From the NCBI GenBank assembly GCA_023246355.1, contig JAHFIQ010000003.1, positions 13,968 to 77,967 on the forward strand: a stretch of 64,000 bases of DNA. Direction: 5' to 3'. Under the pieces are notes generated by a model, which was not told the DNA's origin, searched no databases, and worked only from the letters and a program-made list of their open reading frames with translations. Positions within the stretch are counted from its first letter, which is position 1. Every line of letters starts with the position of its first letter. The DNA is from Candidatus Uhrbacteria bacterium (GTDB lineage Bacteria > Patescibacteriota > Patescibacteriia > UBA9934 > GWF2-40-263). Below are positions 9,636 through 27,393 of this stretch, one piece after another. The position numbers and the translations under genes were made by a program.

Positions 9636-10310
9636 ATGCCTACCCTCTACGTTATTGGAACTCCCATCGGGAATCTACAGGACCTCAGTGAGCGTGCAAA
9701 AACGACTCTCGCGTCTGTTGATGTTGTTCTGTGTGAGGACACCCGTGTGACCTCAAAATTATTGAGTGCCTTTGATATCCATGTTCCGACTCTGTCGTAT
9801 CACCAACACTCAGGCGCATTCAAGACAGAGAAAATTATTGCGCTGCTTGAAGGTGAAAAAAACCTTGCCCTTGTGACAGATGCTGGCACGCCGGGAATCT
9901 CTGATCCTGGTGGAAGAATTGTGGAAGAACTCGTTGAACATTTTGGCGAGGAGCTCACGATCACACCCATTCCTGGTGCATGCGCCGCTGTGACAGCGCT
10001 GTCGATTGCTGGCGTTCCTGCGGATGAGTTTGTGTTTCTCGGATTTCCTCCGCATAAGCGAGGACGGCAGTCTTTTTTTGAACGCATCTTTTTGACACAC
10101 TCAACCGTGGTATTTTACGAGAGCACACACCGAATTCTGAAAACGCTTGGCGAGCTCGCCACAAGAATGCCAGATCGCAAACTCGTTGTCTGCCGCGAAC
10201 TCACCAAAATGTATGAAACGATTTATCGCGGTACGGCTTCTGAGGTGACAGCCAAGCTTGAATCCAGTAGCATCAAGGGAGAATTTGTCATCGTTGTATC
10301 GCCCCTATGA
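9636..10310 (+). CDS. rsmI: 16S rRNA (cytidine1402-2'-O)-methyltransferase
   Basis: N-terminus MPTLYVIGTPIGNLQDLSERA and tetrapyrrole-methylase-like fold motifs (ALVTDAGTPGISDPG). Confidence 0.85.
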   Translation: MPTLYVIGTPIGNLQDLSERAKTTLASVDVVLCEDTRVTSKLLSAFDIHVPTLSYHQHSGAFKTEKIIALLEGEKNLALVTDAGTPGISDPGGRIVEELVEHFGEELTITPIPGACAAVTALSIAGVPADEFVFLGFPPHKRGRQSFFERIFLTHSTVVFYESTHRILKTLGELATRMPDRKLVVCRELTKMYETIYRGTASEVTAKLESSSIKGEFVIVVSPL

Positions 10311-11743
10311 ACCGTTCCTACATCACCACCACGCTTCCCTACGTCAACGCCAAACCACATATTGGTTTTGCCCTTGAGATTGTGCAAGCAGATGTGCTGG
10401 CTCGTGTGTTTCGTTTGAAAGGGTCAGAAGTGATTTTTAATACCGGGACGGACGAACACGGACAAAAAATTTACGAACGTGCGGTCGCCGAAGGAAAAGA
10501 TCCTCAGACCTATGTGGACGAGTATGCAGCGAAATTTGATGCACTCAAATCCGCGTTGAATCTCAGCTACACACATTTCATCCGCACCAGCGATCCCGCA
10601 CACAAAAAAGCGGCTCAGGAATTTTGGACACGTTGTGAAACGCAAGGCGACATTTACAAGAGTCGGTACCAGGTGAAGTACTGCGTGGGGTGTGAACTCG
10701 AAAAAACAGAATCAGAACTTGTGGACGGACATTGTTCGGTTCACCCAAACATGATTCTCGAGTTGCGCGATGAGGAGAATTATTTTTTTCGATGGTCCAA
10801 GTATCAAGAGAAGCTGCTGGCTCTGTACAAGCAGCGTCCTGACTTTGTTGTCCCAGAGCATCGTCTGAAGGAGATCCGTACGTTTGTGGAAGGAGGGTTG
10901 AATGACTTCAGCATCTCACGACTCAAAGAAAAAATGCCGTGGGGGGTGAGCGTGCCAGGGGATGAAGATCATGTGATGTACGTCTGGTTTGATGCGCTCG
11001 TCAATTATATTTCCACGCTCGGTTGGCCGGATGAGAGTGGCGAGTTTGCTTTTTGGCCAGGCGTGCAAGTTGCCGGCAAAGATAATTTGCGTCAGCAGTC
11101 CGCGATGTGGCAGGCCATGCTGATGTCGGCCGGCGTGGAGCCATCAAAACAGATTTTTATTCATGGTTTTATCACCTCTGATGGACAGAAGATGAGCAAG
11201 AGTCTTGGAAATGTGGTGGATCCATTTGAACTGGCGACCGAGTACGGGACAGACGCACTTCGGTATTATTTACTTCGAGAGATTCCGTCAAGTGAAGACG
11301 GCGACTTCTCCCGTGCGCGCATGGAAGAGCGCTATGCAGAGCTGGCAAATCAGCTGGGCAATCTTGTGAGTCGCGTGGCAGCCATGGCGGTCAAGTATTT
11401 TGATGGCAACCTCGATGAAGTGAAGATGGACTGGATGCCTCTCTATCAAAAACTTGGTGCTGCGATCGAGCAGTATGATTTCAAATCGTACCTCGATCAA
11501 GTGTTTGAGGTGGTCGCACAGGCAAATGATCTGGTGGACAAAAAATCTCCCTTCAAACTTGTGAAGGAAGACGAAGCGGCCGCGAAGGCTGTTCTCTCAC
11601 AGCTCTCTGTGATGATCCGTTTCGTCGGCCAAGCGCTTGCCCCGTTTCTTCCACAGACGAGCGAGGAAATTCTCCGTCGCTATGGTAAAGTTGTACTAGT
11701 AGGTGAATCACTTTTTCCCCGTCGCGACTCCTCGTCCACCTAA
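10307..11743 (+). CDS. metG: methionyl-tRNA synthetase (short form, no C-terminal tRNA-binding extension)
   Basis: HIGH-type motif (PYVNAKPHIGFALE), KMSKS, Zn-knuckle CVGCE...C. 4-nt overlap with rsmI. Confidence 0.9.
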   Translation: MNRSYITTTLPYVNAKPHIGFALEIVQADVLARVFRLKGSEVIFNTGTDEHGQKIYERAVAEGKDPQTYVDEYAAKFDALKSALNLSYTHFIRTSDPAHKKAAQEFWTRCETQGDIYKSRYQVKYCVGCELEKTESELVDGHCSVHPNMILELRDEENYFFRWSKYQEKLLALYKQRPDFVVPEHRLKEIRTFVEGGLNDFSISRLKEKMPWGVSVPGDEDHVMYVWFDALVNYISTLGWPDESGEFAFWPGVQVAGKDNLRQQSAMWQAMLMSAGVEPSKQIFIHGFITSDGQKMSKSLGNVVDPFELATEYGTDALRYYLLREIPSSEDGDFSRARMEERYAELANQLGNLVSRVAAMAVKYFDGNLDEVKMDWMPLYQKLGAAIEQYDFKSYLDQVFEVVAQANDLVDKKSPFKLVKEDEAAAKAVLSQLSVMIRFVGQALAPFLPQTSEEILRRYGKVVLVGESLFPRRDSSST

Positions 11744-16447: not shown

Positions 16448-17290
16448 ATGTCCTTGATGATTCCTCCAGCTGCGGCTGAACCACTCTTTTACCTCGGCAC
16501 GTTTCCCATCACCAACGCGATGATCAATGCTTGGATCGCTGTGGTGTTTTTTGTTTGTGTGGCTTTTGTAGCACGTCGTCGTGTGGGTCTCGTACCAAAA
16601 GGCATTCACAATGTCATCGAAGCCGCGATTGACTTCATGCTCACAGAAACACAGAAGGTCACAGGCGACATGAAGCGCGCCAAACAATTTTTGCCGATCG
16701 TGGGAACGATTTTTCTCTTCGTGCTTTTTTCCAACTGGTTGGGACTGTTGCCTGGAACAGGGTCTATCGGCATTTGGGCACAGCATGAAGGTGCGATTGA
16801 GCTTATTCCACTTTTACGACCTGCGGCCAGTGACTTGAATCTCACCCTTGCCATGGCCCTCTTTGCTGTGGTCGCCTCTCACCTGATTGGCATCATGGCC
16901 GTTGGTCCTGTCGCTCATGTGAGCAAGTTCGTAAATATTCGTGGAATTTTCCGTTCGCTCAAGAAAGGCCCCATGGCCATTGTTGTGGCTTTAATCGAAT
17001 TTGCCGTCGGCTTGCTTGAAATCGTATCTGAAATCGCCAAGGTCCTCTCGCTCTCTTTGCGATTGTTCGGTAATATCTTTGCCGGAGAGGTGCTCTTAAC
17101 CGTCATGCTGGGGATCCTTGCGTACGCTCTGCCAATACCCTTCATGTTTCTCGAGCTTCTCGTGGGTATCATCCAGGCCACGGTCTTTGCCATGTTGACG
17201 CTTGCCTACCTCACTGTTGCGACACAGAGTCATGACGAGCATGAGGAAGATCACGAACCTCGACATGCACCTGCACCCTCTATCACCTAA
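16448..17290 (+). CDS. atpB: F0F1 ATP synthase subunit a
   Basis: Conserved Arg-containing helix (LSLRLFGNIFAGEVLL). Confidence 0.9.
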   Translation: MSLMIPPAAAEPLFYLGTFPITNAMINAWIAVVFFVCVAFVARRRVGLVPKGIHNVIEAAIDFMLTETQKVTGDMKRAKQFLPIVGTIFLFVLFSNWLGLLPGTGSIGIWAQHEGAIELIPLLRPAASDLNLTLAMALFAVVASHLIGIMAVGPVAHVSKFVNIRGIFRSLKKGPMAIVVALIEFAVGLLEIVSEIAKVLSLSLRLFGNIFAGEVLLTVMLGILAYALPIPFMFLELLVGIIQATVFAMLTLAYLTVATQSHDEHEEDHEPRHAPAPSIT

Positions 17291-17308
17291 TCTACCTTAT
17301 CCACCTAA

Positions 17309-17539
<231 letters not shown>

Positions 17540-17614
17540 GGTAGACGGTAGACAGTAGACGGTTGACAATCTCCATGATTTCCCGTCTGCAGTTTACTGT
17601 TTACCGACTCAACT

Positions 17615-18151
17615 ATGTCACAAGAAGTACAACTTGCTGCAGAGGCAACAGAGGCCGCAGGCGGCATTGGAACGCTCGGCATCAATCTGAAAATTTTTTT
17701 GGCTCAGCTTTTTAATTTTGCCATCGTGCTCGTGGTCTTGTGGAAGTGGGCGTACAAGCCCATTGTGAAATTGCTCGAAGAGCGACAAGCAAAAATTGAG
17801 AACAGCGTGAAGCAAGCCGGTGAGATTGAAAAGCGCGTGGTTGAGATTGAAAAAGAACAACAGGCAACCATCGCTGCTGCCAAGAATGACGCAGCAAAAA
17901 TTCTTGACGAGGTGCGCACAACCGCAGACGACCGCAAAAGAGTTTTGCTGGAAAAAGCAAAAGAGGAAGTGAAGGCCGTTGTCGCGCAAGGAAAAGTGCA
18001 GCTTCAGGCTGAGAAGGATCAGATGATCCGCGATGCCAGAGAAGAAATTGCCAAGATCGCTGTCGAGGCCGCGAGAAAGATTTTGAATGAAACGGTTGAC
18101 GAGAAGAAAGCGCAAAAAATGGCAGAAGCTGTTGTGGAGAAAATGGTATGA
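17615..18151 (+). CDS. atpF: F0F1 ATP synthase subunit b
   Basis: N-terminal TM helix then long charged coiled coil. Operon position. Confidence 0.8.
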   Translation: MSQEVQLAAEATEAAGGIGTLGINLKIFLAQLFNFAIVLVVLWKWAYKPIVKLLEERQAKIENSVKQAGEIEKRVVEIEKEQQATIAAAKNDAAKILDEVRTTADDRKRVLLEKAKEEVKAVVAQGKVQLQAEKDQMIRDAREEIAKIAVEAARKILNETVDEKKAQKMAEAVVEKMV

Positions 18152-18534
18152 AGAAAAATGAAAATGCACTCGCACGTGTTCTGGTTGAGTCTCTCGATGG
18201 TGCAGATGAAAAAACCGTTAAAGCCGTGGCAGACGATTTAGTTCACGAACTCGGGGCGCGGCGAGAAACACATCGGCTGCGAGGACTCGTCGATGCCCTT
18301 GATGGGGCCTGGGCACAGCGACACGGAGCTGCGACCATCACGATCGAGACAGCGTATCCACTTTCTGGGGCGCTCAGAAAAAAGATCGAGAAGATGGCTG
18401 AGGGAGCGGAACTTCGAGAACGTGTCACCCCAGAGTTGATTGGTGGGGCGCGACTGAGGGTCGATGAGAAAATTATTGAAGGGACCATTTCCGGTCAGCT
18501 TGAACACCTATCCCGAGTTCTCGCGGATGTATAA
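18148..18534 (+). CDS. atpH: F0F1 ATP synthase subunit delta (short, 128 aa)
   Basis: Position between atpF and atpA, OSCP-like C-terminal pattern. Shorter than canonical delta. Confidence 0.65.
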   Translation: MKKNENALARVLVESLDGADEKTVKAVADDLVHELGARRETHRLRGLVDALDGAWAQRHGAATITIETAYPLSGALRKKIEKMAEGAELRERVTPELIGGARLRVDEKIIEGTISGQLEHLSRVLADV

Positions 18535-18537
18535 CCT

Positions 18538-20052
18538 ATGACAACCAAAACACATATCATCGACGCACTGAAGTCAGCCTTGGAGAACTATCACGTCGAA
18601 GTGAAACAAGAAGAAGTCGGAACCGTGTTGTCTGTGGGTGACGGCACGGCACGTATGTCAGGACTTACCCATGCCAAGGCGTCAGAGATGCTTGAATTTT
18701 CTGGCGGGGTTTTTGGCGTCGCCCTGAACCTTGAAGAAGACGGCGTAGGCGCGGTCATTCTTGGCGACGCCTCAAAGATCAAGGAAGGGGACACCGTGAA
18801 AACCACCGGTCGTATTTTGTCTGTGGCGATTTCCGATGATGTCGTAGGCCGTGTGCTTGATCCACTCGGCAATCCGATTGATGGAAAAGGCAAGCTCAAT
18901 GCGAAAACCTTTTTTCCGATTGAAAAAATCGCGCCAGGCGTGATGACACGAAAATCAGTTGGTGTGCCGTTGCAAACGGGCATCAAAGCGATCGACTCGA
19001 TGATTCCCATTGGTCGCGGACAGCGCGAGCTGATTATTGGCGATCGTCAGACAGGAAAGACCGCCATCGCGATTGACACAATCATCAACCAGAAAGGACA
19101 GAACGTGAAGTGCATTTATGTCGCGATTGGGCAGAAAGAATCCAAGATCGCCAAGATCGTAGCCAGGCTTGAAGAAGCAGGCGCCATGGAATACACGACC
19201 GTCGTGGTCGCTGGCGCTTCTGATCCAGCCGCACTTTCCTACATCGCGCCGTTCACCGGCTGCACCATCGGGGAATATTTTATGGCGAAGGGCGAGGATG
19301 CGCTGGTGATCTACGACGACCTTTCCAAACAAGCCTGGGCGTATCGCGAAATTTCGCTGTTACTGCGCCGTCCACCAGGACGTGAAGCTTATCCTGGTGA
19401 TGTCTTTTATTTGCACTCACGTTTGCTTGAGCGTGCGGCTCGTCTCAACGAAGAAAACGGTGGAGGATCCTTGACCGCGCTTCCGATCATCGAAACACAG
19501 GCAGGTGATGTCAGTGCCTACATCCCGACAAACGTCATCTCGATTACAGACGGACAAATTTATCTTGAAACAGATTTGTTTTATCGCGGGATCCGTCCAG
19601 CCCTGAACGTCGGACTTTCTGTCTCACGCGTAGGTTCTGCGGCTCAGACCAAGGCCATGAAAAAAGTCGCGGGAAAATTGCGACTTGAACTCGCGCAATT
19701 CCGTGAGCTTGAGGCGTTCGCACAGTTTGCCACAGACTTGGATGCAGGGACACGGCAACAAATCGAACGTGGACGCCGTCTGACTGAGCTGTTGAAACAG
19801 CCTCAATATCATCCTCTTCCATTTGAAGTACAGGTTGCGTCGATCTATGCCGCGATCAATGGATGTTTGGATGCAATCGCTCCTGAGCGAATCGTGGAAT
19901 GGGAAGAGAAATTTCAGACGTATCTGGAAAGCTCGGGCACAGAAGTCATGGAGCAGCTCAAAAAAGAAAAAGCGTTGAATGATGAGATTGAAGCTGGTCT
20001 TAAAAAATTGATCCAGGATTTTAATTCCACCTTTGCCACCTCATCTACCTAA
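18538..20052 (+). CDS. atpA: F0F1 ATP synthase subunit alpha
   Basis: Walker A GDRQTGKT; conserved alpha-subunit blocks. Confidence 0.95.
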
Positions 20053-20064
20053 TCCACCTTCCGT

Positions 20065-20967
20065 GTGGCAGTCCAAACACGCGCCATCAAACGTCGGATC
20101 AAGTCCGTCAAGAATACACGCAAGATCACCAAGGCCATGGAGTTGGTTGCGGCGAGTAAAATGCGCAAGGCGGTCAACTTCGTGCTGGCCAGTCGTCCCT
20201 ATTCTAAACTTGCCTGGAGCACCATTCTCTCGATCGGCACACGGGTGGACACAAGTTTGCATCCGTTACTTGCTCGCCACGATGAAGTGAAACGCGTGTT
20301 GCTCATCCTCATCACCTCTGATCGAGGACTGGCGGGTGGATTCAATACGAACATCCTTCGAAAAACGCGTGAGGAGATTCGGTCGTTTGGTGAAGACGTT
20401 GAACTGCAGACGATCTGCATTGGCAAACGTGGCGCGGATGCCATGAAACGACTTAAGCTCCCGGTCATGGCTAGCTTTGTGGAGATTACCAACAACACAA
20501 AGTTTGAGGAAGTCCTGCCAATCGGAAGGCTCGTGATAGATGAATTTACAAAAGGATCGTTTGATAAAGTCCTTGTGGCGTACACGGATTTCGTGAGTGC
20601 CATCACTCAGAAGCCTTTGATCATGCAGTTGTTGCCGCTTCAAAGAGAGGTGGCGGAGGTGGACAAGGTGGAAGAGGTAGCCGCAGGCTTCAGCCTGCGT
20701 TCGTCAACTGAACTCACCTTTGAACCTTCTCCAAACGCGGTCCTCGATTCTATGCTTCCCCGACTCGTTGAAACCATGGTGTATCAAGCCGTGCTCGAAT
20801 CCGCTGCCTCTGAACATTCCAGTCGCATGATGGCGATGCGATCTGCATCCGATGCCGCAGGGGATATGATCGACGACCTCACATTCACCTTTAACCAAGC
20901 GCGTCAGGCCGGCATCACCCAGGAGATCGCTGAAATTTCTTCCGGTAAAGCAGCTTTAGAAAATTAG
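20065..20967 (+). CDS. atpG: F0F1 ATP synthase subunit gamma (GTG start)
   Basis: N-terminal MAVQTRAIKRRIKSVKNTRKITKAMELVAASKMRKA and C-terminal helix ITQEIAEISSGKAALE. Confidence 0.9.
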   Translation: MAVQTRAIKRRIKSVKNTRKITKAMELVAASKMRKAVNFVLASRPYSKLAWSTILSIGTRVDTSLHPLLARHDEVKRVLLILITSDRGLAGGFNTNILRKTREEIRSFGEDVELQTICIGKRGADAMKRLKLPVMASFVEITNNTKFEEVLPIGRLVIDEFTKGSFDKVLVAYTDFVSAITQKPLIMQLLPLQREVAEVDKVEEVAAGFSLRSSTELTFEPSPNAVLDSMLPRLVETMVYQAVLESAASEHSSRMMAMRSASDAAGDMIDDLTFTFNQARQAGITQEIAEISSGKAALEN

Positions 20968-20976
20968 TTCTCCTAA

Positions 20977-22395
<1,419 letters not shown>

Positions 22396-22418
22396 GTCCT
22401 ATCGGTCCTGTTCGACCT

Positions 22419-22862
22419 ATGGCTCAATTGCAATTATCCATCGTCACCCCTGAACGCATTGTCTTTGAAGACGAGGTTGATTCGGTTTCTGCGATGACAC
22501 AAATGGGCGAGGTGACGATTTTGCCTGGGCATGTGCCCTTGGTTGCCAATTTGCAAGCAGGCGAGCTTCGGCTCAAAAAAAATGGTTCAGAGAGTTACCT
22601 TGTGGCCTCCACGGGATTTTTGCATGTGCAATCTGGAAACAAGATTGTTATTCTCGCGGACACGGCAGAGCGTGTGGAAGAACTTGAGCTTGGAAAAATT
22701 GAGGAAGCTCGAGATCGTGCTCGAAAACTTTTGGATGAAAAACGACATGTCGATGATGTCGCGTTTGCCAACGCTGCGGCCATGCTTGAACGAGAACTCG
22801 CCCGACATCGGGTGGTGACCAAAAGAAAAAAATACAAAGACGTTGGCAAATCACTTTCCTAA
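22419..22862 (+). CDS. atpC: F0F1 ATP synthase subunit epsilon
   Basis: 147 aa; N-terminal beta-sandwich pattern (LQLSIVTPERIVFEDEVDSVS) then helical C-terminus. Confidence 0.85.
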   Translation: MAQLQLSIVTPERIVFEDEVDSVSAMTQMGEVTILPGHVPLVANLQAGELRLKKNGSESYLVASTGFLHVQSGNKIVILADTAERVEELELGKIEEARDRARKLLDEKRHVDDVAFANAAAMLERELARHRVVTKRKKYKDVGKSLS

Positions 22863-22864
22863 AT

Positions 22865-23647
22865 ATGAATATAGAACATGAATCCCACGCCGTTCAAAAA
22901 GAGCACGAATGGTTGAAAGGCCAGGAAAAAATTTCTGCGATTTTAGAGCAGGGCATGGAATCGTACGTTGATCAGATGCCTGACCTTGAAAATGCATTTG
23001 CTGAGGGGGATCACACCCTGTGCTGTATGGATGAGGGTGTGGCACAAGGAGATATGCGTTCAGCTGGGTCTGGAATCCTTACGGAAGGACGTGAGCGAGA
23101 AGTATTCATTGCCAAGCTTAAAGCCGCCGGAGTCAAGGATGTGACAAGTCACGAAGGGTGCGGTGCTGCTGGATTGTACAAAGAGAAACACGGGATCACA
23201 GACATGACGGTTGATGAAGTTGCCATCGAACAGGCAAAGCGCATGGCTTCAGAGCTCGGTGTGCCCTACAAAGGTCATGTGACAGAGCTCGATAGACCAA
23301 AAGAGTTTCATAACGCTCGAGTCGTATATCTGGATGGTACCGGACGATTTAATCCAAGTCGTGTGTCTGAACTGCCACAAGGATTTGTGGTGAGTGCAAG
23401 GTATATGACTCCAGAGCAGGCATTGTCTGAGGTTCAATTAGCCACGAAGATCGCGTTTGGGGAGCATGGGTTTGGTGATAAATTTTCAGAGGAAGACCCA
23501 CTGGTCGTCGTAGCCATCGGCGATAGCACAGAGCCAGATTTTGTTGGGAAGGACCTTGAACGTGAACTCACGAATATCATTGGCGAGGGCCGCGTCCGTG
23601 TAGATCATTTCTCGGTTCCTCGCTCTTGGATGCGAGAAGCTGCGTAA
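22865..23647 (+). CDS. hypothetical protein with beta-carbonic-anhydrase-like Cys/His/Cys motifs (CCMDEG ... SHEGCGAAG)
   Basis: 260 aa, starts 2 nt after atpC. CxDxG and HxxCGA spaced about 43 aa apart resemble the beta-CA zinc site, but the conserved Arg of CxDxR is absent. Paralogous to the next gene (shared ...RVVYLDGTGRF / ...RVHINDRSGRK block). Confidence 0.4.
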   Translation: MNIEHESHAVQKEHEWLKGQEKISAILEQGMESYVDQMPDLENAFAEGDHTLCCMDEGVAQGDMRSAGSGILTEGREREVFIAKLKAAGVKDVTSHEGCGAAGLYKEKHGITDMTVDEVAIEQAKRMASELGVPYKGHVTELDRPKEFHNARVVYLDGTGRFNPSRVSELPQGFVVSARYMTPEQALSEVQLATKIAFGEHGFGDKFSEEDPLVVVAIGDSTEPDFVGKDLERELTNIIGEGRVRVDHFSVPRSWMREAA

Positions 23648-23701
23648 ATAAGCTGGGATGTGAAACCTGAGAGGTTTATCCACTCGGGTTTTTTGAATCC
23701 A

Positions 23702-23730
23702 TTGACTTTCTCGTCCAAGTAAGGCATACT
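23702..23730 (+). promoter_or_regulatory. putative sigma70-type promoter for the 23759 gene
   Basis: TTGACT (23702-23707), 17-nt spacer, CATACT (23725-23730), about 28 nt upstream of the ATG. Confidence 0.4.
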
Positions 23731-23758
23731 TTGGCCCGCCCATCACCCGAGGTCGCTC

Positions 23759-24415
23759 ATGGGTCAACTCAGTGCGTTCGATCAAGAGGTCGTCGACATC
23801 CTCCGTCATCGTGGAATTTTCGAGAACGTGGATGCGATGCGTTTCCACTTGGACAACGGCGTGATCATCTTCAGATGTCCTGATGGTGATCAGATGCTTG
23901 ATCGCATCAGGCATGATGAACAGGTTGCACGTGAAGCTGGTGGTGAACTGCGCCCGCATCTGCTGACCTGTCACGGTGGGAGCATGGTGCTTGCACCCGA
24001 CTCTCCGCTCTATCCTGGAATGGGGGCCGACCAGCTCTACCTGACGATGATCAGGGAGGCAGAGGCGCTCAAGGACATCAAGACGGTTTCCGCAGAGATT
24101 CACGCTCCTTGTGGAAAGGCGATGAGTCTTGGACTCACGCTCGTGGAGCAGATCGTTTTGCTCATGGCGGCCAAACCGCGAATCAAGGCGATCGATCCAA
24201 CCAACAAGGTCGTCTGTCGCGTCCACATCAACGATCGAAGTGGCCGCAAGCGTACCTACTTCATCTCGCGGGCCAAGTGGATCGCGTTTTGGGAGAGCGA
24301 GGGACGACAGGTGTGGGGATACCGGTTCCCAGTCGATCCTTATGCGTCACAGCTTCCTGGTGAGGCACTCGCAGGAGCTGATCACCATGAGACCAGCGAC
24401 CTGGTCGGCATGTAG
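23759..24415 (+). CDS. hypothetical protein, paralog of 22865-23647 with CPDGD ... HAPCGKA motifs; GC elevated
   Basis: 218 aa; C-x-D-G and H-x-x-C-G motifs; GC visibly higher (about 57-60%) than the ATP synthase genes. Confidence 0.4.
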   Translation: MGQLSAFDQEVVDILRHRGIFENVDAMRFHLDNGVIIFRCPDGDQMLDRIRHDEQVAREAGGELRPHLLTCHGGSMVLAPDSPLYPGMGADQLYLTMIREAEALKDIKTVSAEIHAPCGKAMSLGLTLVEQIVLLMAAKPRIKAIDPTNKVVCRVHINDRSGRKRTYFISRAKWIAFWESEGRQVWGYRFPVDPYASQLPGEALAGADHHETSDLVGM

Positions 24416-24462
24416 TTTCAACGTCGCCGCCTACGCAAAGGCGGTTTTCATTTTGTGATAAG

Positions 24463-27393
24463 ATGCCTTTCGGTATGTCTGATTTGCTCTCAAAACTTAA
24501 TCCTGAGCAGCAAGCGGCTGTCACGCATGTGGACGGCCCACTCATGATTGTGGCCGGGGCAGGGACAGGGAAAACGACCGTGATCACACACCGGATCGCC
24601 TGGCTCATTGAGCAGGGTCATGCCAAGCCTGAGGAAATTTTAGCGCTTACGTTTACCGATAAGGCTGCCGGGGAAATGGAAGAGAGAGTAGATCGCCTGT
24701 TGCCCTACGGATATGTGGATCTGCAGATTTCAACCTTTCACGCGTTTGCCGAAAAGCTCCTGCGCGATTATGGCGTTGAGATCGGACTGTCACGTGATTT
24801 TCGATTAGTGAATGAACTAGACGCGTGGCTTCTGGCGCGACAGCATTTTGACCGTTTTGAACTTGACCACTATCGCCCGCTTGGAAACCCTACGAAGTAC
24901 ATTCGTTCGCTGCTCACGCATTTTTCTCGTGCCAAGGACGTGGGTGTGGATCCTGACGCGTATCAAGCAACGATCGAGGCGAGATTTGCTGATCAGGATT
25001 CTGCTCAGGCAGATGAAGCCACCACTTCTGAGATCAAACGGTTGAGAGAACTCGCTGGTGCTTATCGAACCTATCAACAAATTTTGCTTGAGCATGACTG
25101 CCTTGATTTTGGCGACCTCATGCTCTACACATTGAAACTGTTGAAAGACCGCCCTGCGGTGCGAGACATCATCCGAGCACGATTTAAGTTTGTTCTCGTC
25201 GATGAATTTCAAGACACGAACGATGCCCAGTATGAGATCGTCCGAGAGATTGCCTCGCCCAAGAACAACCTGACTGTTGTGGGCGACGATGATCAGTCTA
25301 TTTATAAATTTCGTGGCGCGTCGCTTGCCAATATCCTCCGTTTTGAAACAGACTTTCCAGCTGCCAGACACGTCGTGCTCACGTCCAATTACCGATCCGC
25401 GCAACGAATTCTTGATCACGCCTATGACTTCATTCAACACAACAATCCCAATCGTTTGGAAGTAACCTCCTCAAGATCCTTGTCAAAAAAGCTACAGGCC
25501 TCAAAAGATCTCAAGGCAACCGTTGAGCATCTGCACGCTCTCACCAGTGAAGAAGAAGTTGCAACCGTAGTCCGAAAAATTCTTGCGCTTCGTGAGGCTG
25601 AGCCAGAGGTCGAGTGGAGTGATTTTGCCATTCTGGTGCGATCCAATTCTGCAGGAACAGATTTTGCCCAGGCTCTGGAGCGCCATCAGATTCCGTATCA
25701 GTTTTTGGCGCTCTCGGGACTCTACACGAAGCCTGCTGTGCTCGACATGCTGGCATTTCTGCGTGTGATCGATCACGTGTTTGATTCACCAAGTTTCTAC
25801 CGATTGCTTACCTCGCCTGTGGTTGGAGTGAGTGAGAGGGGAGTGATGGAACTGAACCGGTTGGCAGCTCGCAAAGGCAAGTCATTGTATGAAGCTTGCG
25901 AAATGGCGCAGAGTTTTTCACGTCTTGATCCATCGGACGAAGAGCTCATCCACGAACTGATCCAAAAAATTTCTGCCTGGCAACGTCAGGCGCGCACGCG
26001 CAAAGTCGGCGAGCTCCTCGTCATGATCGCCAAAGAGTCTGGATACCTTGAGCATGTCAACTCGATGGACGAGCGCCACAAGATCGAGACGTTCAGTCAT
26101 CTTCAGCAGTTGTATCAGCGGTTAAAAGCGTTTGAGCGTTCAAGTGAACACCCAATTCTTCACAATTTTCTCAAAGAGTTTGCCCACGAACGAGACGCCG
26201 GTGAGGAAGGATCGCTCAGTGTGGACCTTGAATCTGGTCCTGACCTGGTGCGCATCATGACCATCCACGCGGCAAAGGGTTTGGAATTTCGTTATGTGTT
26301 TATTGTGAACCTGGTCGCGCAAAAATTTCCGACCCGCGCCATGAAGGATGCCATTGAGCTCCCAGAAGGACTCGGTTCGCAAGCGCCGACAGAAGGTGAC
26401 GCACATCTTGAGGAAGAGCGTCGTCTATTCTATGTGGCCATGACGCGAGCCAAGGAAGGTTTGTATTTCACCTCAGCCGATGATTATGGTGGTGCTCGCA
26501 AACGTAAGATCTCGCCATTTCTCCACGAGCTTGGGTACACACAGCCTGAGAGTCCTGCCTCTATTCTTGAACTCATTGATGAGACAGAATACAACCTAAA
26601 ACCTACACCCTACCCCGCTCCTGTTCCCAAGCAATTTTCGTTTACACAGTTGGCCGCATTCAAGACCTGTCCTTTGCAGTACAAATTTGCACACATTCTC
26701 AAAGTCCCTGTGATGGGAAAATGGACCTTCTCGTTTGGCAAGACCATGCACAATACGTTACAGAGATTTTTTACCCTCTGGCTTGAACGAACAGGCAAAA
26801 AACAGACAAGCCTGTTTGAAGCTGATCTTGCACCGATTGACGGAATCCCTGTGAGCATGGAGGAGCTTCTCAATGCCTATCAAACATGCTGGCAGGACGA
26901 TTGGTATGTGAATGATCGACAACGGGAAGAATATCGTGAACAGGGGAGAGCGTCGCTTAAACAGCTCTGGGCGCAGTATCACTTGGCGCCACCATCACCG
27001 CTCTTTGTTGAGCAGGGATTTACCATGAAGATCGGCGACATCGCCCTGAAGGGACGCATCGATCGCATCGATGCCTGCGAGGATGGAATCGAAATCATCG
27101 ATTACAAAACAGGCTCGCCCAAAACCGAGCTCACGCTGGACGATAAGGAGCAGCTCCTGCTCTACCAACTCGCCGCGGTACAGGTTCTCGGTCTCAAACC
27201 AAAACGGCTGACCTATCATTACCTCGGGGACAATTCAACCGTGTCGTTTTTAGGAACGCAAAAACAACTTGATGACTTGGAGCAATCTCTCATTTCACGT
27301 GTGCAAGGCATTCGTGACTCTGACTTTCAAGCCACCCCAGGCTTCCACTGTCAGTTCTGTGATTTTGCTGATATCTGTGAGTTCCGTCAGTAA
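24463..27393 (+). CDS. UvrD/PcrA-family superfamily-1 helicase fused to a C-terminal Cys-cluster PD-(D/E)XK nuclease domain (AddA/AddB/Cas4-like)
   Basis: Walker A AGAGTGKT, DEFQDT (motif II), helicase motif VI region IHAAKGLEF. C-terminal RIDRID...IIDYKTG nuclease core and CQFCDFADICEF Cys cluster. Confidence 0.85.
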   Translation: MPFGMSDLLSKLNPEQQAAVTHVDGPLMIVAGAGTGKTTVITHRIAWLIEQGHAKPEEILALTFTDKAAGEMEERVDRLLPYGYVDLQISTFHAFAEKLLRDYGVEIGLSRDFRLVNELDAWLLARQHFDRFELDHYRPLGNPTKYIRSLLTHFSRAKDVGVDPDAYQATIEARFADQDSAQADEATTSEIKRLRELAGAYRTYQQILLEHDCLDFGDLMLYTLKLLKDRPAVRDIIRARFKFVLVDEFQDTNDAQYEIVREIASPKNNLTVVGDDDQSIYKFRGASLANILRFETDFPAARHVVLTSNYRSAQRILDHAYDFIQHNNPNRLEVTSSRSLSKKLQASKDLKATVEHLHALTSEEEVATVVRKILALREAEPEVEWSDFAILVRSNSAGTDFAQALERHQIPYQFLALSGLYTKPAVLDMLAFLRVIDHVFDSPSFYRLLTSPVVGVSERGVMELNRLAARKGKSLYEACEMAQSFSRLDPSDEELIHELIQKISAWQRQARTRKVGELLVMIAKESGYLEHVNSMDERHKIETFSHLQQLYQRLKAFERSSEHPILHNFLKEFAHERDAGEEGSLSVDLESGPDLVRIMTIHAAKGLEFRYVFIVNLVAQKFPTRAMKDAIELPEGLGSQAPTEGDAHLEEERRLFYVAMTRAKEGLYFTSADDYGGARKRKISPFLHELGYTQPESPASILELIDETEYNLKPTPYPAPVPKQFSFTQLAAFKTCPLQYKFAHILKVPVMGKWTFSFGKTMHNTLQRFFTLWLERTGKKQTSLFEADLAPIDGIPVSMEELLNAYQTCWQDDWYVNDRQREEYREQGRASLKQLWAQYHLAPPSPLFVEQGFTMKIGDIALKGRIDRIDACEDGIEIIDYKTGSPKTELTLDDKEQLLLYQLAAVQVLGLKPKRLTYHYLGDNSTVSFLGTQKQLDDLEQSLISRVQGIRDSDFQATPGFHCQFCDFADICEFRQ

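What the first reader, a model, noticed from the sequence alone, without database searches (positions are those of the whole stretch)
22865..24415. Two adjacent paralogs with beta-carbonic-anhydrase-like Cys...His-x-x-Cys-Gly motifs directly after atpC
The 260-aa protein (start 2 nt after the atpC stop, so probably part of the atp transcript) has CCMDEG then SHEGCGAAG about 43 aa later. The 218-aa protein (own TTGACT-17-CATACT promoter at 23702-23730, elevated GC) has RCPDGD and HAPCGKA. Beta-carbonic anhydrases ligate zinc through the Cys of CxDxR and the His and Cys of HxxCG, which both proteins mimic, but both lack the dyad Arg. The two also share a downstream block (ARVVYLDGTGRF / CRVHINDRSGRK), indicating common ancestry. 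A bicarbonate- or CO2-handling metal enzyme (or some other Cys2His metal site) tied to the proton-ATPase operon would be physiologically interesting for an organism with minimal metabolism, but the fold assignment is only motif-level.
Basis: inference. Interest (0 to 1): 0.55.

Follow-up and report, generated by a model that had tools for sequence, protein, structure and literature searches.

The report
Carbonic-anhydrase-like genes attached to ATP synthase operon
Two unannotated genes right after the ATP synthase operon of a tiny "candidate phyla radiation" bacterium belong to two different, highly diverged carbonic-anhydrase-like protein families. Related bacteria repeatedly place these families, or other carbonic-anhydrase types, at the end of operons for proton-moving machines, which hints at an undescribed CO2/bicarbonate accessory to their energy metabolism.

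Summary
Both ORFs and their motifs are real. They lie after atpC in a Candidatus Uhrbacteria (Patescibacteria) genome.

ORF B (218 aa) has a beta-carbonic-anhydrase (beta-CA) fold. About 47 of the top 50 Foldseek PDB hits are beta-CAs (best E 1e-3, prob 0.99). Its Cys40/Asp42/His115/Cys118 are invariant.

ORF A (260 aa) belongs to a large family without a Pfam model (848 representatives at 50% clustering). Cys54/Asp56/Cys99/His149 are invariant and His96 nearly so. 37% of members carry a full CxDxR motif, and that subfamily aligns to real beta-CAs at P=7e-5. A's confident model nevertheless has no Foldseek PDB match.

Context is the strongest result.
- A is linked to atp genes in five different arrangements, including insertion inside the operon.
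- In other lineages the slot after atpC holds a Pfam Pro_CA_2 protein or an iota-CA homolog, followed by B.
- Short B homologs also follow complex-I-like (Ehr) clusters.

Best reading: diverged beta-CA-superfamily metal proteins act as a CO2/bicarbonate/proton accessory to proton-translocating complexes. Enzymatic activity is untested, and the window's proteins lack the dyad Arg.

The parts
16448..22862 (+). F-type ATP synthase operon (atpB at 16448, c subunit, atpF, atpH, atpA 18538-20052, atpG 20065-20967, atpD 21013-22395, atpC 22419-22862)
   Evidence: ORFs. atpC hits Pfam ATP-synt_DE_N. The same gene order carries Pfam labels in relatives.
22865..23647 (+). ORF A (260 aa): member of a large Patescibacteria family with no Pfam model, carrying a beta-CA-type C-x-D ... 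H-x-x-C-G-A signature. It starts 2 nt after the atpC stop.
   Evidence: AF2 model pLDDT 94.6.
23024..23038 (+). Codons for C54-M-D56-E-G58 of A. This corresponds to the beta-CA CxDxR position; Gly replaces the dyad Arg here, and Arg is present in 54/146 homologs.
   Evidence: The motif sits directly after predicted strand 51-53.
23150..23167 (+). Codons for H96-E-G-C99-G-A101 of A (the HxxCGA motif).
   Evidence: Invariant or near-invariant. The motif lies at the end of strand 92-96 and before helix 100-108. It aligns to HxxCG of real beta-CAs.
23309..23311 (+). Codon for H149 of A, an additional invariant His with no assigned role.
   Evidence: 146/146.
23662..23694 (+). Hairpin followed by a U-run after ORF A. 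It is terminator-like and is the possible end of the atp-A transcript.
   Evidence: -18.7 kcal/mol, z -3.33; sequence.
23702..23730 (+). Sigma-70-like hexamers TTGACT-17-CATACT upstream of B. This is a consensus match only.
   Evidence: 2 found against 2.3 expected by chance.
23759..24415 (+). ORF B (218 aa): member of a second Patescibacteria family with no Pfam model and a predicted beta-CA-like fold. GAGG lies 7 nt upstream of the ATG.
23876..23890 (+). Codons for C40-P-D42-G-D44 of B. Asp sits at the dyad-Arg position.
   Evidence: C40 and D42 are invariant. The motif sits directly after strand 35-39.
24101..24115 (+). Codons for H115-A-P-C118-G119 of B.
   Evidence: H115, P117 and C118 are invariant. 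The motif lies at the end of strand 109-116 and before helix 119-123.
24426..24455 (+). Terminator-like hairpin plus T-run after B.
   Evidence: sequence.
24463..27393 (+). UvrD/PcrA-type helicase-nuclease. It is the conserved downstream neighbour (synteny marker) and is not considered part of the system.
   Evidence: Pfam labels of homologs. Downstream of A in 16/79 loci.

Best explanation
ORF A and ORF B are members of two separate, very diverged branches of the beta-carbonic-anhydrase superfamily. Each keeps the Cys / Asp / His-x-x-Cys residues that hold the catalytic zinc in beta-CAs.

A is translated from the atp transcript: there is a 2-nt gap after atpC and a hairpin plus U-run after A. 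B follows, possibly from its own start.

I infer that the two proteins bind a metal through Cys2His. I further infer that they act, probably as homo- or hetero-oligomers in the way beta-CA dimers do, on the CO2 / bicarbonate / proton equilibrium, or sense it, in the service of the proton-translocating F-type ATPase. In relatives the served complex can be a complex-I-like Ehr complex instead.

Shown:
- The residues are conserved.
- B has a beta-CA-like fold.
- A shows profile similarity to beta-CAs through its Arg-bearing subfamily.
- Genomic coupling to atp and Ehr operons recurs.
- The same slot is filled by Pro_CA_2 and iota-CA genes in other lineages.

Inferred:
- Metal binding.
- The substrate.
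- Oligomerisation.
- Any physical contact with the ATPase.

In this genome Gly (A) and Asp (B) replace the dyad Arg. The site may therefore be a 'closed' Asp-ligated, regulated or altered-specificity site rather than a fast free-running CA.
For: Conservation:
- A: C54, D56, C99 and H149 are invariant and H96 is 145/146 in 146 diverse sequences.
- B: C40, D42, H115 and C118 are invariant in 54 sequences.
- In both AF2 models the first Cys follows strand 1, the His ends strand 3, and the second Cys starts the next helix. This is the beta-CA arrangement (established knowledge of beta-CA structures).

Fold:
- B's model (pLDDT 85.6) hits about 15 different beta-CAs in the Foldseek top 50. The best is 1g5c, E 9.6e-4, prob 0.99.

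Profile evidence:
- 54/146 A members have CxDxR.
- That subfamily against 13 genuine beta-CAs gives hhalign Prob 62%, P 7.3e-5. Controls were at best 0.0035.
- The A1 profile's only PDB hit is beta-CA 6y04, E 0.079.
- Pfam Pro_CA is hit below threshold by 3/48 members.

Context of A:
- A lies directly after atpC in 19/79 species-level loci spanning Uhr-, Veblen-, Falkow-, Jackson- and Moran-bacteria and others.
- A lies between atpA and atpG in one Daviesbacteria genome, with a 1-nt gap.
- A lies between atpD and atpC in another (L090), upstream of atpB (L086), and divergent from atpB (L067).

Context of B:
- B pairs with A in 11/79 loci, in either order, including loci without atp genes.
- Short B homologs belong to the same family (hhalign 98.9%, E 1e-17). 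In 10/10 informative loci they follow atpC or an Ehr-type complex-I-like cluster with PF00361, NuoH and NuoCD.

Slot substitution:
- Between atpC and B other lineages carry a Pfam Pro_CA_2 'putative carbonic anhydrase' with CIDFR...HxDCGA. It scores 36-53 bits against a cutoff of 30, and hhalign against beta-CAs gives 86%, E 5e-6.
- One lineage carries an iota-CA homolog instead (PDB 3h51 E 9e-26, 7c5x E 2e-6; PMC8425729).
- In L112/L114 the order is atpC, then A, then a fused double Pro_CA_2.

Precedent:
- DabA2 is a beta-CA-like protein with only five residues conserved. It is coupled to a PF00361 proton-conducting subunit (PMC13144422).
Against: - Broad A profiles (A3, A4) find no beta-CA in PDB. 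The Gly subfamily, which includes the window protein, matches beta-CAs only at HxxCG (P 0.008).
- B is not significantly similar to beta-CAs by sequence. Its TM-scores are modest (0.34-0.48), and generic Rossmann-like folds appear only about 10-fold lower in the E-value ranking.
- Neither window protein has the dyad Arg.
- About 70% of A genes are not next to atp genes. Some B genes sit next to RecG.
- Much of the atp-A-(B)-UvrD order could be inherited synteny.
- There are no experimental data of any kind.
Confidence: 0.55

Rival explanations
1. A and B use a decayed beta-CA scaffold, or only its zinc site, for a non-catalytic role. They would act as regulators, assembly factors or stator/inhibitor-like accessory subunits of the CPR F-type ATPase, and of Ehr in relatives, with the Cys2His(Asp) site being structural or a redox/pH/bicarbonate sensor.
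For: - The window proteins lack the dyad Arg.
- Without Arg the Asp is expected to ligate zinc, giving the 'closed' type II state (established beta-CA knowledge; PMC13144422).
- A is inserted between atpA and atpG, or between atpD and atpC, in Daviesbacteria. This suggests co-expression with F1 subunits.
- A has large extra regions and further invariant residues (H149, Y155, F174, H201) with no beta-CA counterpart.
Against: - 37% of family A keep CxDxR.
- The same slot is filled by Pro_CA_2 and iota-CA homologs, which points to chemistry rather than a structural role.
- About 70% of A genes lie away from atp genes.
Confidence: 0.2
2. A and/or B are ordinary, freely acting cytoplasmic carbonic anhydrases (housekeeping CO2/bicarbonate supply). 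Their position after the atp operon is inherited gene order without functional coupling.
For: - Beta-CA-type ligands are conserved.
- B has a beta-CA-like fold.
- The UvrD neighbour is conserved about as often (16/79), and that is surely synteny.
- Most A genes lie elsewhere.
Against: - Five independent atp-linked arrangements exist, including insertion within the operon with a 1-nt gap.
- B, Pro_CA_2 and iota-CA also cluster at atp or Ehr 3' ends.
- The dyad Arg is missing in the window proteins.
- Neither protein reaches any CA family threshold.
Confidence: 0.15
3. The beta-CA resemblance of A is convergent. A is a new fold with its own Cys/His/Asp site and an unrelated chemistry. Only B, if either, is beta-CA-related.
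For: - A's model has no Foldseek PDB hit.
- The beta-CA hit is lost with broader profiles.
- A vs Pro_CA_2 aligns only at HxxCGA (P about 0.003).
- A vs B is not significant.
Against: - hhalign P 7.3e-5, with both motifs in register and clean controls.
- The order of secondary-structure elements around the motifs is the same as in beta-CAs.
- A third motif, [HR]-x-A-G-S-G-I-L, resembles beta-CA R-N-A-G-N, as aligned by HMMER to 6y04.
- A's genomic partners are CA-like.
Confidence: 0.1

Closest known systems
Beta-class carbonic anhydrases (Pfam Pro_CA PF00484; e.g. Cab 1G5C, E. coli Can/CynT, TvaCA1 6Y04)
   Same: - Cys after strand 1, Asp two residues later, and His-x-x-Cys-Gly at the end of strand 3 in both A and B.
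- B's predicted fold matches.
- A's Arg subfamily has CxDxR and aligns at P 7e-5.
   Different: - Neither protein reaches the Pfam threshold.
- The window proteins have Gly (A) or Asp (B) at the dyad Arg position.
- A is about 90 aa longer, with a 45-residue N-terminal helical region and extra C-terminal alpha/beta units, and it has no Foldseek match.
- Both have extra invariant His residues (A H149; B H67).
- They are linked to atp and Ehr operons.
Pfam Pro_CA_2 (PF20393, 'putative carbonic anhydrase')
   Same: - It is a small diverged beta-CA-like family.
- It occupies the same slot (atpC, then X, then B) in other CPR lineages, and sits next to A in L112/L114.
- It shares the HxxCGA motif with A.
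   Different: - A and B do not hit PF20393.
- hhalign of Pro_CA_2-type sequences against A covers only HxxCGA (P about 0.003). Against B it is not significant.
DabA/DabB (DAB) energy-coupled CO2 hydration complex
   Same: - It has a beta-CA-like subunit almost unrecognisable by sequence, with a Cys2His site and Asp.
- That subunit is genetically and physically coupled to a PF00361 proton-conducting membrane subunit (PMC13144422).
- Short B homologs sit at the 3' end of PF00361-containing Ehr clusters.
   Different: - DabA is about 800+ aa with two fused beta-CA-like domains and membrane 'fingers', and it keeps the Asp-Arg dyad.
- A and B are small soluble proteins.
- Here the partner is the F-type ATPase operon.
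- No physical interaction has been shown.
CsoSCA (carboxysomal beta-CA) pseudo-dimer principle
   Same: - Two beta-CA-like halves, of which only one has an active site, as cited in PMC13144422.
- L112's 337-aa neighbour of A is a fusion of one degenerate and one intact Pro_CA_2-like half.
- The A+B, A+Pro_CA_2 and Pro_CA_2+B gene pairs could be split versions of this arrangement.
   Different: Hetero-oligomerisation of A and B is an inference only, and there is no carboxysome context.
COS hydrolase / CS2 hydrolase (clade D beta-CA relatives)
   Same: They are beta-CA-fold enzymes with altered substrate preference (PMC12035519). They show that the scaffold supports other small heterocumulene substrates.
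   Different: They are readily recognised as Pro_CA by sequence and keep the dyad Arg. No sulfur-metabolism context is seen here.

Membership tests
Beta-carbonic anhydrase (Pfam Pro_CA, PF00484) | Sequence matches the family HMM above the gathering score | tested here: not met
   A and B have no hit at E<=10. Among 48 A members, 3 hit Pro_CA below threshold (best E 0.013). Among 22 and 54 B members, none hit.
Beta-carbonic anhydrase (Pfam Pro_CA, PF00484) | Zinc ligands: Cys after strand 1, plus His and Cys of HxxC at the end of strand 3 | tested here: met
   A: C54 and C99 are invariant and H96 is 145/146. B: C40, H115 and C118 are invariant. Their positions relative to predicted strands and helices match beta-CA.
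Beta-carbonic anhydrase (Pfam Pro_CA, PF00484) | Asp-Arg dyad (C-x-D-x-R) | tested here: not met
   Asp is present and invariant in both. Arg is absent in the window proteins (A Gly58, B Asp44). Arg is present in 54/146 family-A members and in no B member.
Beta-carbonic anhydrase (Pfam Pro_CA, PF00484) | Beta-CA (resolvase-like alpha/beta) fold | tested here: inconclusive
Beta-carbonic anhydrase (Pfam Pro_CA, PF00484) | Profile-profile homology to genuine beta-CAs | tested here: inconclusive
   A Arg subfamily: Prob 62%, P 7.3e-5, controls at best 0.0035. All A: P about 0.005. A Gly subfamily: 0.008. B: 0.16-0.5.
Beta-carbonic anhydrase (Pfam Pro_CA, PF00484) | Zinc content and CO2 hydration activity | not testable with these tools
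   This needs ICP-MS and enzyme assays or complementation.
Pro_CA_2 (PF20393) | Match to the family HMM above the gathering score | tested here: not met
   No A or B member lists PF20393. By contrast the 148-aa genes between atpC and short B score 36-53 bits against a cutoff of 30.
Two adjacent paralogs (recent duplication of one gene) | Significant sequence or profile similarity between A and B | tested here: not met
   The best BLASTP match is E 0.2, in the wrong register. hhalign gives Prob 1-5%, P 0.006-0.06. The proposed shared block gives P 0.2. An extended alignment does place all invariant residues opposite each other. Remote superfamily-level kinship is therefore possible but unproven.
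DAB-type energy-coupled CA (DabA PF10070 + DabB PF00361) | DabA-family sequence and an adjacent PF00361 membrane subunit | tested here: not met
   No PF10070 hit. There is no PF00361 gene next to A or B in the window. Short B homologs are adjacent to PF00361-containing Ehr clusters. This is an analogy, not membership.
atp operon member (co-transcribed accessory gene) | Same strand, minimal intergenic gap, no intervening terminator, and linkage conserved across lineages | tested here: met
   For A:
- 2-nt gap.
- No terminator-like site between atpC and A; a hairpin plus U-run lies after A.
- A follows atpC in 19/79 loci, and four other atp-linked arrangements exist.
Transcription itself was not tested. 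For B the evidence is weaker: it lies after the hairpin and may have its own start.

The most novel reading that the evidence does not exclude
CPR/Patescibacteria possess a previously unrecognised modular accessory system. At least three diverged beta-CA-like families (A, B, Pro_CA_2), and occasionally an iota-CA, pair up at the 3' end of F-type ATPase and Ehr (complex-I-like) operons. The pairs would form hetero-oligomeric 'split pseudo-dimers' that dock on, or are gated by, the proton-translocating machine. This would give energy-coupled or proton-coupled CO2 hydration/dehydration, analogous to DAB and the cyanobacterial Cup/NDH-1 systems but attached to an ATP synthase.
Probability: 0.2. 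Interest if true: 0.85.

Novelty: new variant of a known kind. Interest (0 to 1): 0.65.

Why it matters
CPR bacteria make up a large share of bacterial diversity. Their metabolism is minimal and fermentative, and the role of their F-type ATPase and of the non-hydrogenase 'Ehr' complexes is unresolved (PMC7304191).

Carbonic-anhydrase-like genes of three or four different kinds sit beside these proton machines across many CPR classes. This suggests that CO2/bicarbonate/proton chemistry is built into their energy or pH homeostasis. It also yields concrete, cheap experiments: metal analysis, CA-free E. coli rescue, and co-purification.

The work defines two sizeable protein families. Family A alone has 848 representatives at 50% identity. 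Neither family has a Pfam or NCBIfam model. Together they extend the list of beta-CA derivatives that are invisible to sequence annotation, such as DabA, LCIB and CsoSCA.

Tried and rejected
- Broad-profile PDB searches for A (A3, A4) and B (A2, A7) gave nothing significant. The only beta-CA traces were 6y04 at E 0.079 and 3las at E 0.21.
- Adding AF2 secondary structure to hhalign did not change the scores.
- A defence-system or phage origin was rejected: there are no PADLOC or PHROGs hits.
- A viral-contig scan for diverse beta-CAs returned only close relatives of E. coli Can. Beta-CAs were harvested from plasmids instead.
- The search for related loci rejected alignments A1 and A7 as too diverse. 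Narrower alignments A5 and A8 were used.
- The promoter-like site before B is not above chance.
- The literature searches I ran found no description of these families or of CA genes in CPR atp operons.
Full report
**What is in the window.**
The window carries a complete F-type ATP synthase operon on the + strand, ending with atpC at 22419-22862 (Pfam ATP-synt_DE_N, E 2.5e-25). ORF A (22865-23647, 260 aa) starts 2 nt after the atpC stop. A hairpin plus U-run follows A at 23662-23694 (-18.7 kcal/mol, z -3.3). Next come the TTGACT-17-CATACT site, which is no more than chance expectation, and ORF B (23759-24415, 218 aa) with a GAGG 7 nt upstream. After B come a terminator-like site (24426-24445) and a UvrD-type helicase-nuclease. 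GC is 0.56-0.58 over B against about 0.50 around it. Homologs identify the organism as a Candidatus Uhrbacteria / Patescibacteria (CPR) bacterium.

**Annotation status.**
Neither protein hits Pfam, NCBIfam, PADLOC, PHROGs or any PDB sequence. All database homologs are 'hypothetical protein' with no precomputed Pfam domain. Family A is large. An exhaustive profile search found 848 representatives at 50% clustering with E<=1e-3, of which 380 have E<=1e-30. Family B is smaller: 21 proteins with the single query and 63 with a profile that included distant members.

**Are A and B paralogs?**
This is not demonstrable.
- BLASTP finds nothing.
- hhalign between family profiles of increasing breadth gives probability 1-5% and P 0.006-0.06, driven by the H-x-x-C-G stretch.
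It has no significant similarity to the beta-CA strand-4/5 hairpin either. In the broader B family the block is not conserved.
- An extended low-stringency alignment does put every invariant residue of one family opposite one of the other: C54/C40, D56/D42, H96/H115, C99/C118, H149/H156, GFVISR/TYFISR.

Remote kinship within one superfamily is therefore plausible. 'Two adjacent paralogs' overstates the evidence.

**Conservation.**
In 146 diverse A sequences, C54, D56, C99 and H149 are invariant and H96 is 145/146. G68, G100, A101, Y155, P171, G173, F174, H201 and G202 are nearly invariant. At the position of the beta-CA dyad Arg (residue 58), 92 sequences have Gly and 54 have Arg. More than a third of the family therefore carries an exact C-x-D-x-R, and the window protein belongs to the Gly type.

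In 54 diverse B sequences, C40, D42, H67, G73, G74, H115, P117 and C118 are invariant. The dyad position is Asp or His and never Arg.

**Is it beta-CA?**
I harvested 13 genuine beta-CAs: E. coli can and cynT plus annotated plasmid genes from eight bacterial orders.

Sequence evidence for A:
- The Arg-type A subfamily aligns to the beta-CA profile with hhalign Prob 62%, P 7.3e-5 over 58 columns, with CxDxR and HxxCGA in register.
- The reversed beta-CA alignment gives 0.23. Forty column shuffles give at best 0.0035, with a median of 0.35.
- All of A gives P about 0.005. The Gly subfamily gives 0.008, over HxxCG only.
- The first A profile's only PDB hit was beta-CA 6y04 (E 0.079), with three motifs aligned. 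Broader profiles lose it.

Sequence evidence for B: none (P 0.16-0.5).

Structural evidence:
- AF2 models are confident: A has pLDDT 94.6 and pTM 0.92; B has pLDDT 85.6 and pTM 0.83.
- For B, about 47 of the top 50 Foldseek PDB hits are beta-CAs, representing about 15 different enzymes from archaea, bacteria, fungi and a protozoan. The best is Cab 1g5c at E 9.6e-4, prob 0.99. TM-scores are modest (0.34-0.48), and generic alpha/beta folds follow about 10-fold behind in E-value.
- B's order of secondary-structure elements is strand 1, then C-x-D; a helix; strand 2, then GG; helices; strand 3, then HxPCG; helices; and a strand-4/5 hairpin. This is the beta-CA order.
- For A, Foldseek finds no PDB match at all (best E 0.079, TM 0.19).
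- A's residues 46-110 show the same local order: strand, then CxDE; a short strand, then AGSG; a helix; a strand, then HxxCGA; a helix. They are embedded in a longer protein with a 45-residue N-terminal helical part and extra C-terminal alpha/beta units.

My estimates: about 80% that B has a beta-CA-type fold, and about 65% that A's core is homologous to it.

**Genomic context of A.**
Among 79 species-level genome loci encoding A, atpC lies immediately upstream on the same strand in 19 (gaps of about 10-330 nt by tblastn). These span Uhrbacteria, Veblenbacteria, Falkowbacteria, Jacksonbacteria, Moranbacteria and unclassified Parcubacteria/Patescibacteria. Metagenome contigs show the same arrangement.

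The linkage also occurs in four other arrangements:
- atpA-A-atpG, with a 1-nt gap, in one Daviesbacteria genome.
- atpD-[5 kb]-A-[1 kb]-atpC in another (L090).
- A located 0.8 kb upstream of atpB (L086).
- A divergent from atpB (L067).

atp genes are the most frequent conserved neighbours of A. About 70% of A genes are elsewhere, and the UvrD neighbour (16/79) shows that part of the pattern is plain synteny.

**Genomic context of B, and substitutions in the same slot.**
B-family genes sit next to A in 11/79 loci, in either order, including loci with no atp genes nearby. A 'short' B subtype (168-177 aa) clearly belongs to the same family (hhalign 98.9%, E 1e-17). In 10 of 10 loci with enough upstream sequence, it lies immediately downstream of atpC or of a complex-I-like cluster with PF00361, NuoH-like and NuoCD-like genes. 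In L125 the order is atpC, the cluster, B, groES. Such clusters correspond to the CPR 'Ehr' complexes, which lack hydrogenase metal ligands (PMC7304191).

Between atpC and short B, six loci encode a 148-aa protein with C-I-D-F-R ... P-G-A-A-K ... N-H-x-D-C-G-A-Y-G.
- It passes Pfam PF20393 'Pro_CA_2, putative carbonic anhydrase' (36-53 bits against a cutoff of 30, E to 4.8e-14).
- It aligns to the real beta-CAs (hhalign 86%, E 5e-6).

In L117 that slot instead holds a CaMKII-AD protein. Its best PDB matches are 3h51 (E 9e-26) and iota-CA 7c5x (E 2e-6). 3h51 is treated as the X. campestris iota-CA in PMC8425729.

In L112/L114 the order is atpC, then A, then a 337-aa fusion of one degenerate and one intact (C-M-D-Y-R / H-Q-D-C-G) Pro_CA_2-like half.

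The gene position that A occupies in the window is thus filled elsewhere by two other carbonic-anhydrase-type proteins, and A, B and Pro_CA_2 occur in all three pairwise combinations. I consider this the best available evidence that the module deals with CO2/bicarbonate.

**Mechanism.**
Shown: conserved beta-CA-type ligand residues, a beta-CA-like fold for B, and tight, recurrent operonic coupling to proton-translocating complexes.

Inferred:
- A and B bind zinc through Cys2His, with the conserved Asp nearby.
- They work as oligomers. Beta-CAs are obligate dimers, and CsoSCA and DabA are fused pseudo-dimers with one active site (PMC13144422). The L112 fusion and the gene pairs suggest a split version of that arrangement.
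- They catalyse or sense CO2 + H2O = HCO3- + H+ next to the ATPase, for example to buffer or supply protons for an ATP-driven pump in a fermentative cell, or to control bicarbonate.

Because the window proteins lack the dyad Arg, the Asp may ligate the metal (the closed, type-II-like state). Activity may then be low, gated, or directed at another small substrate. The DAB complex is a precedent for a nearly unrecognisable beta-CA-like subunit whose activity depends on a proton-conducting partner.

**Comparison and novelty.**
These proteins are not members of Pro_CA, Pro_CA_2 or DabA by the families' own criteria. They are best described as two new, strongly diverged branches of the beta-CA superfamily, firmer for B than for A, with a new and consistent association with ATP synthase and Ehr operons in CPR bacteria. 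The searches I ran in the held literature found no description of this.

Verdict:
- Novelty: a new variant of a known kind.
- Interest: 0.65.
- Main uncertainties: A's fold, and the complete absence of functional data.

Noticed in passing
L121:2420-2866, L124:282-728, L127:1761-2207, L123:587-1027, L122:10-495, L129:7-405: A 148-aa Pfam Pro_CA_2 (PF20393) protein with complete CIDFR / HxDCGA motifs lies between atpC and the short B-family gene. It occupies the slot that ORF A has in the window.
   Followed up: yes
L112:9791-10804 (and L114, about 10142-10798): Directly after atpC-A lies a 337-aa ORF made of two Pro_CA_2-like halves. The first has lost the Cys/His ligands. The second keeps CMDYR and HQDCG. 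This is a CsoSCA/DabA-style pseudo-dimer.
   Followed up: partly
L117:5488-5892: A CaMKII-AD/SnoaL-like protein lies between atpC and B. Its best PDB matches are 3h51 (E 9e-26) and iota-carbonic anhydrase 7c5x. A different CA class sits in the same slot.
   Followed up: partly
L119:1-6507, L120, L125:1414-8516, L126, L128, L131, L118: Short B-family genes sit at the 3' end of complex-I-like 'Ehr' clusters (PF00361 x2, NuoH-like, an unannotated 218-aa protein, NuoCD-like), usually followed by groES. In L125 the cluster itself follows atpC.
   Followed up: partly
L036:8000-11930: In the closest species-level relative (A 79% identical), about 3.9 kb is inserted between A and B. It contains ORFs of 439 aa (weak DHH hit), 383 aa and smaller unknowns. 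The nature of the insert is unknown.
   Followed up: partly
L003:8890-13047: The UvrD-type helicase downstream of A in this relative is 1385 aa and carries Hint/intein-splicing domains. It is an intein-containing version of the window's 976-aa gene.
   Followed up: no
L004:1853-4531: In Daviesbacteria, a reverse transcriptase (RVT_1) gene and a MazE/PIN toxin-antitoxin pair lie immediately upstream of the atp operon that has A inserted between atpA and atpG.
   Followed up: no
L070, L077, L084, L085, L089, L086, L091, L101, L092: Some family-A loci come from bins labelled Altiarchaeota, Aenigmarchaeota, Chloroflexota/Dehalococcoidales, Planctomycetota, Acidobacteriota (a 2-Mb contig), Thermoanaerobaculia or Armatimonadetes. 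Either the family reaches beyond Patescibacteria or these bins are mislabelled or contaminated. Several 'uncultured Gammaproteobacteria' labels are clearly wrong, since those loci carry Uhrbacteria-like genes.
   Followed up: no
L054 and L071 (same assembly, JAHFIK01): One Uhrbacteria genome carries two family-A genes on different contigs, neither next to atp genes.
   Followed up: no
window 23486-24226 (- strand): A 246-aa antisense ORF overlaps the end of A and most of B. Similar antisense ORFs cluster across loci (clusters 1, 6, 8, 15). They are most likely shadows of the conserved sense genes, not genes.
   Followed up: partly
L058, L072, L081, L083, L087, L094, L099 (about 0.3-2 kb upstream of A): In Magasanikbacteria-type loci lacking atp genes, A is preceded by a conserved protein of about 424 aa. 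It has an N-terminal 'LDLHIHSKYSRA' PHP-like motif and a CxxC...zinc-finger-like segment (endonuclease-Q-like by eye). This is probably lineage synteny. No family scan was run on it.
   Followed up: no
window 1-64000: ARAGORN found no tRNA or tmRNA gene in the whole 64-kb window.
   Followed up: no
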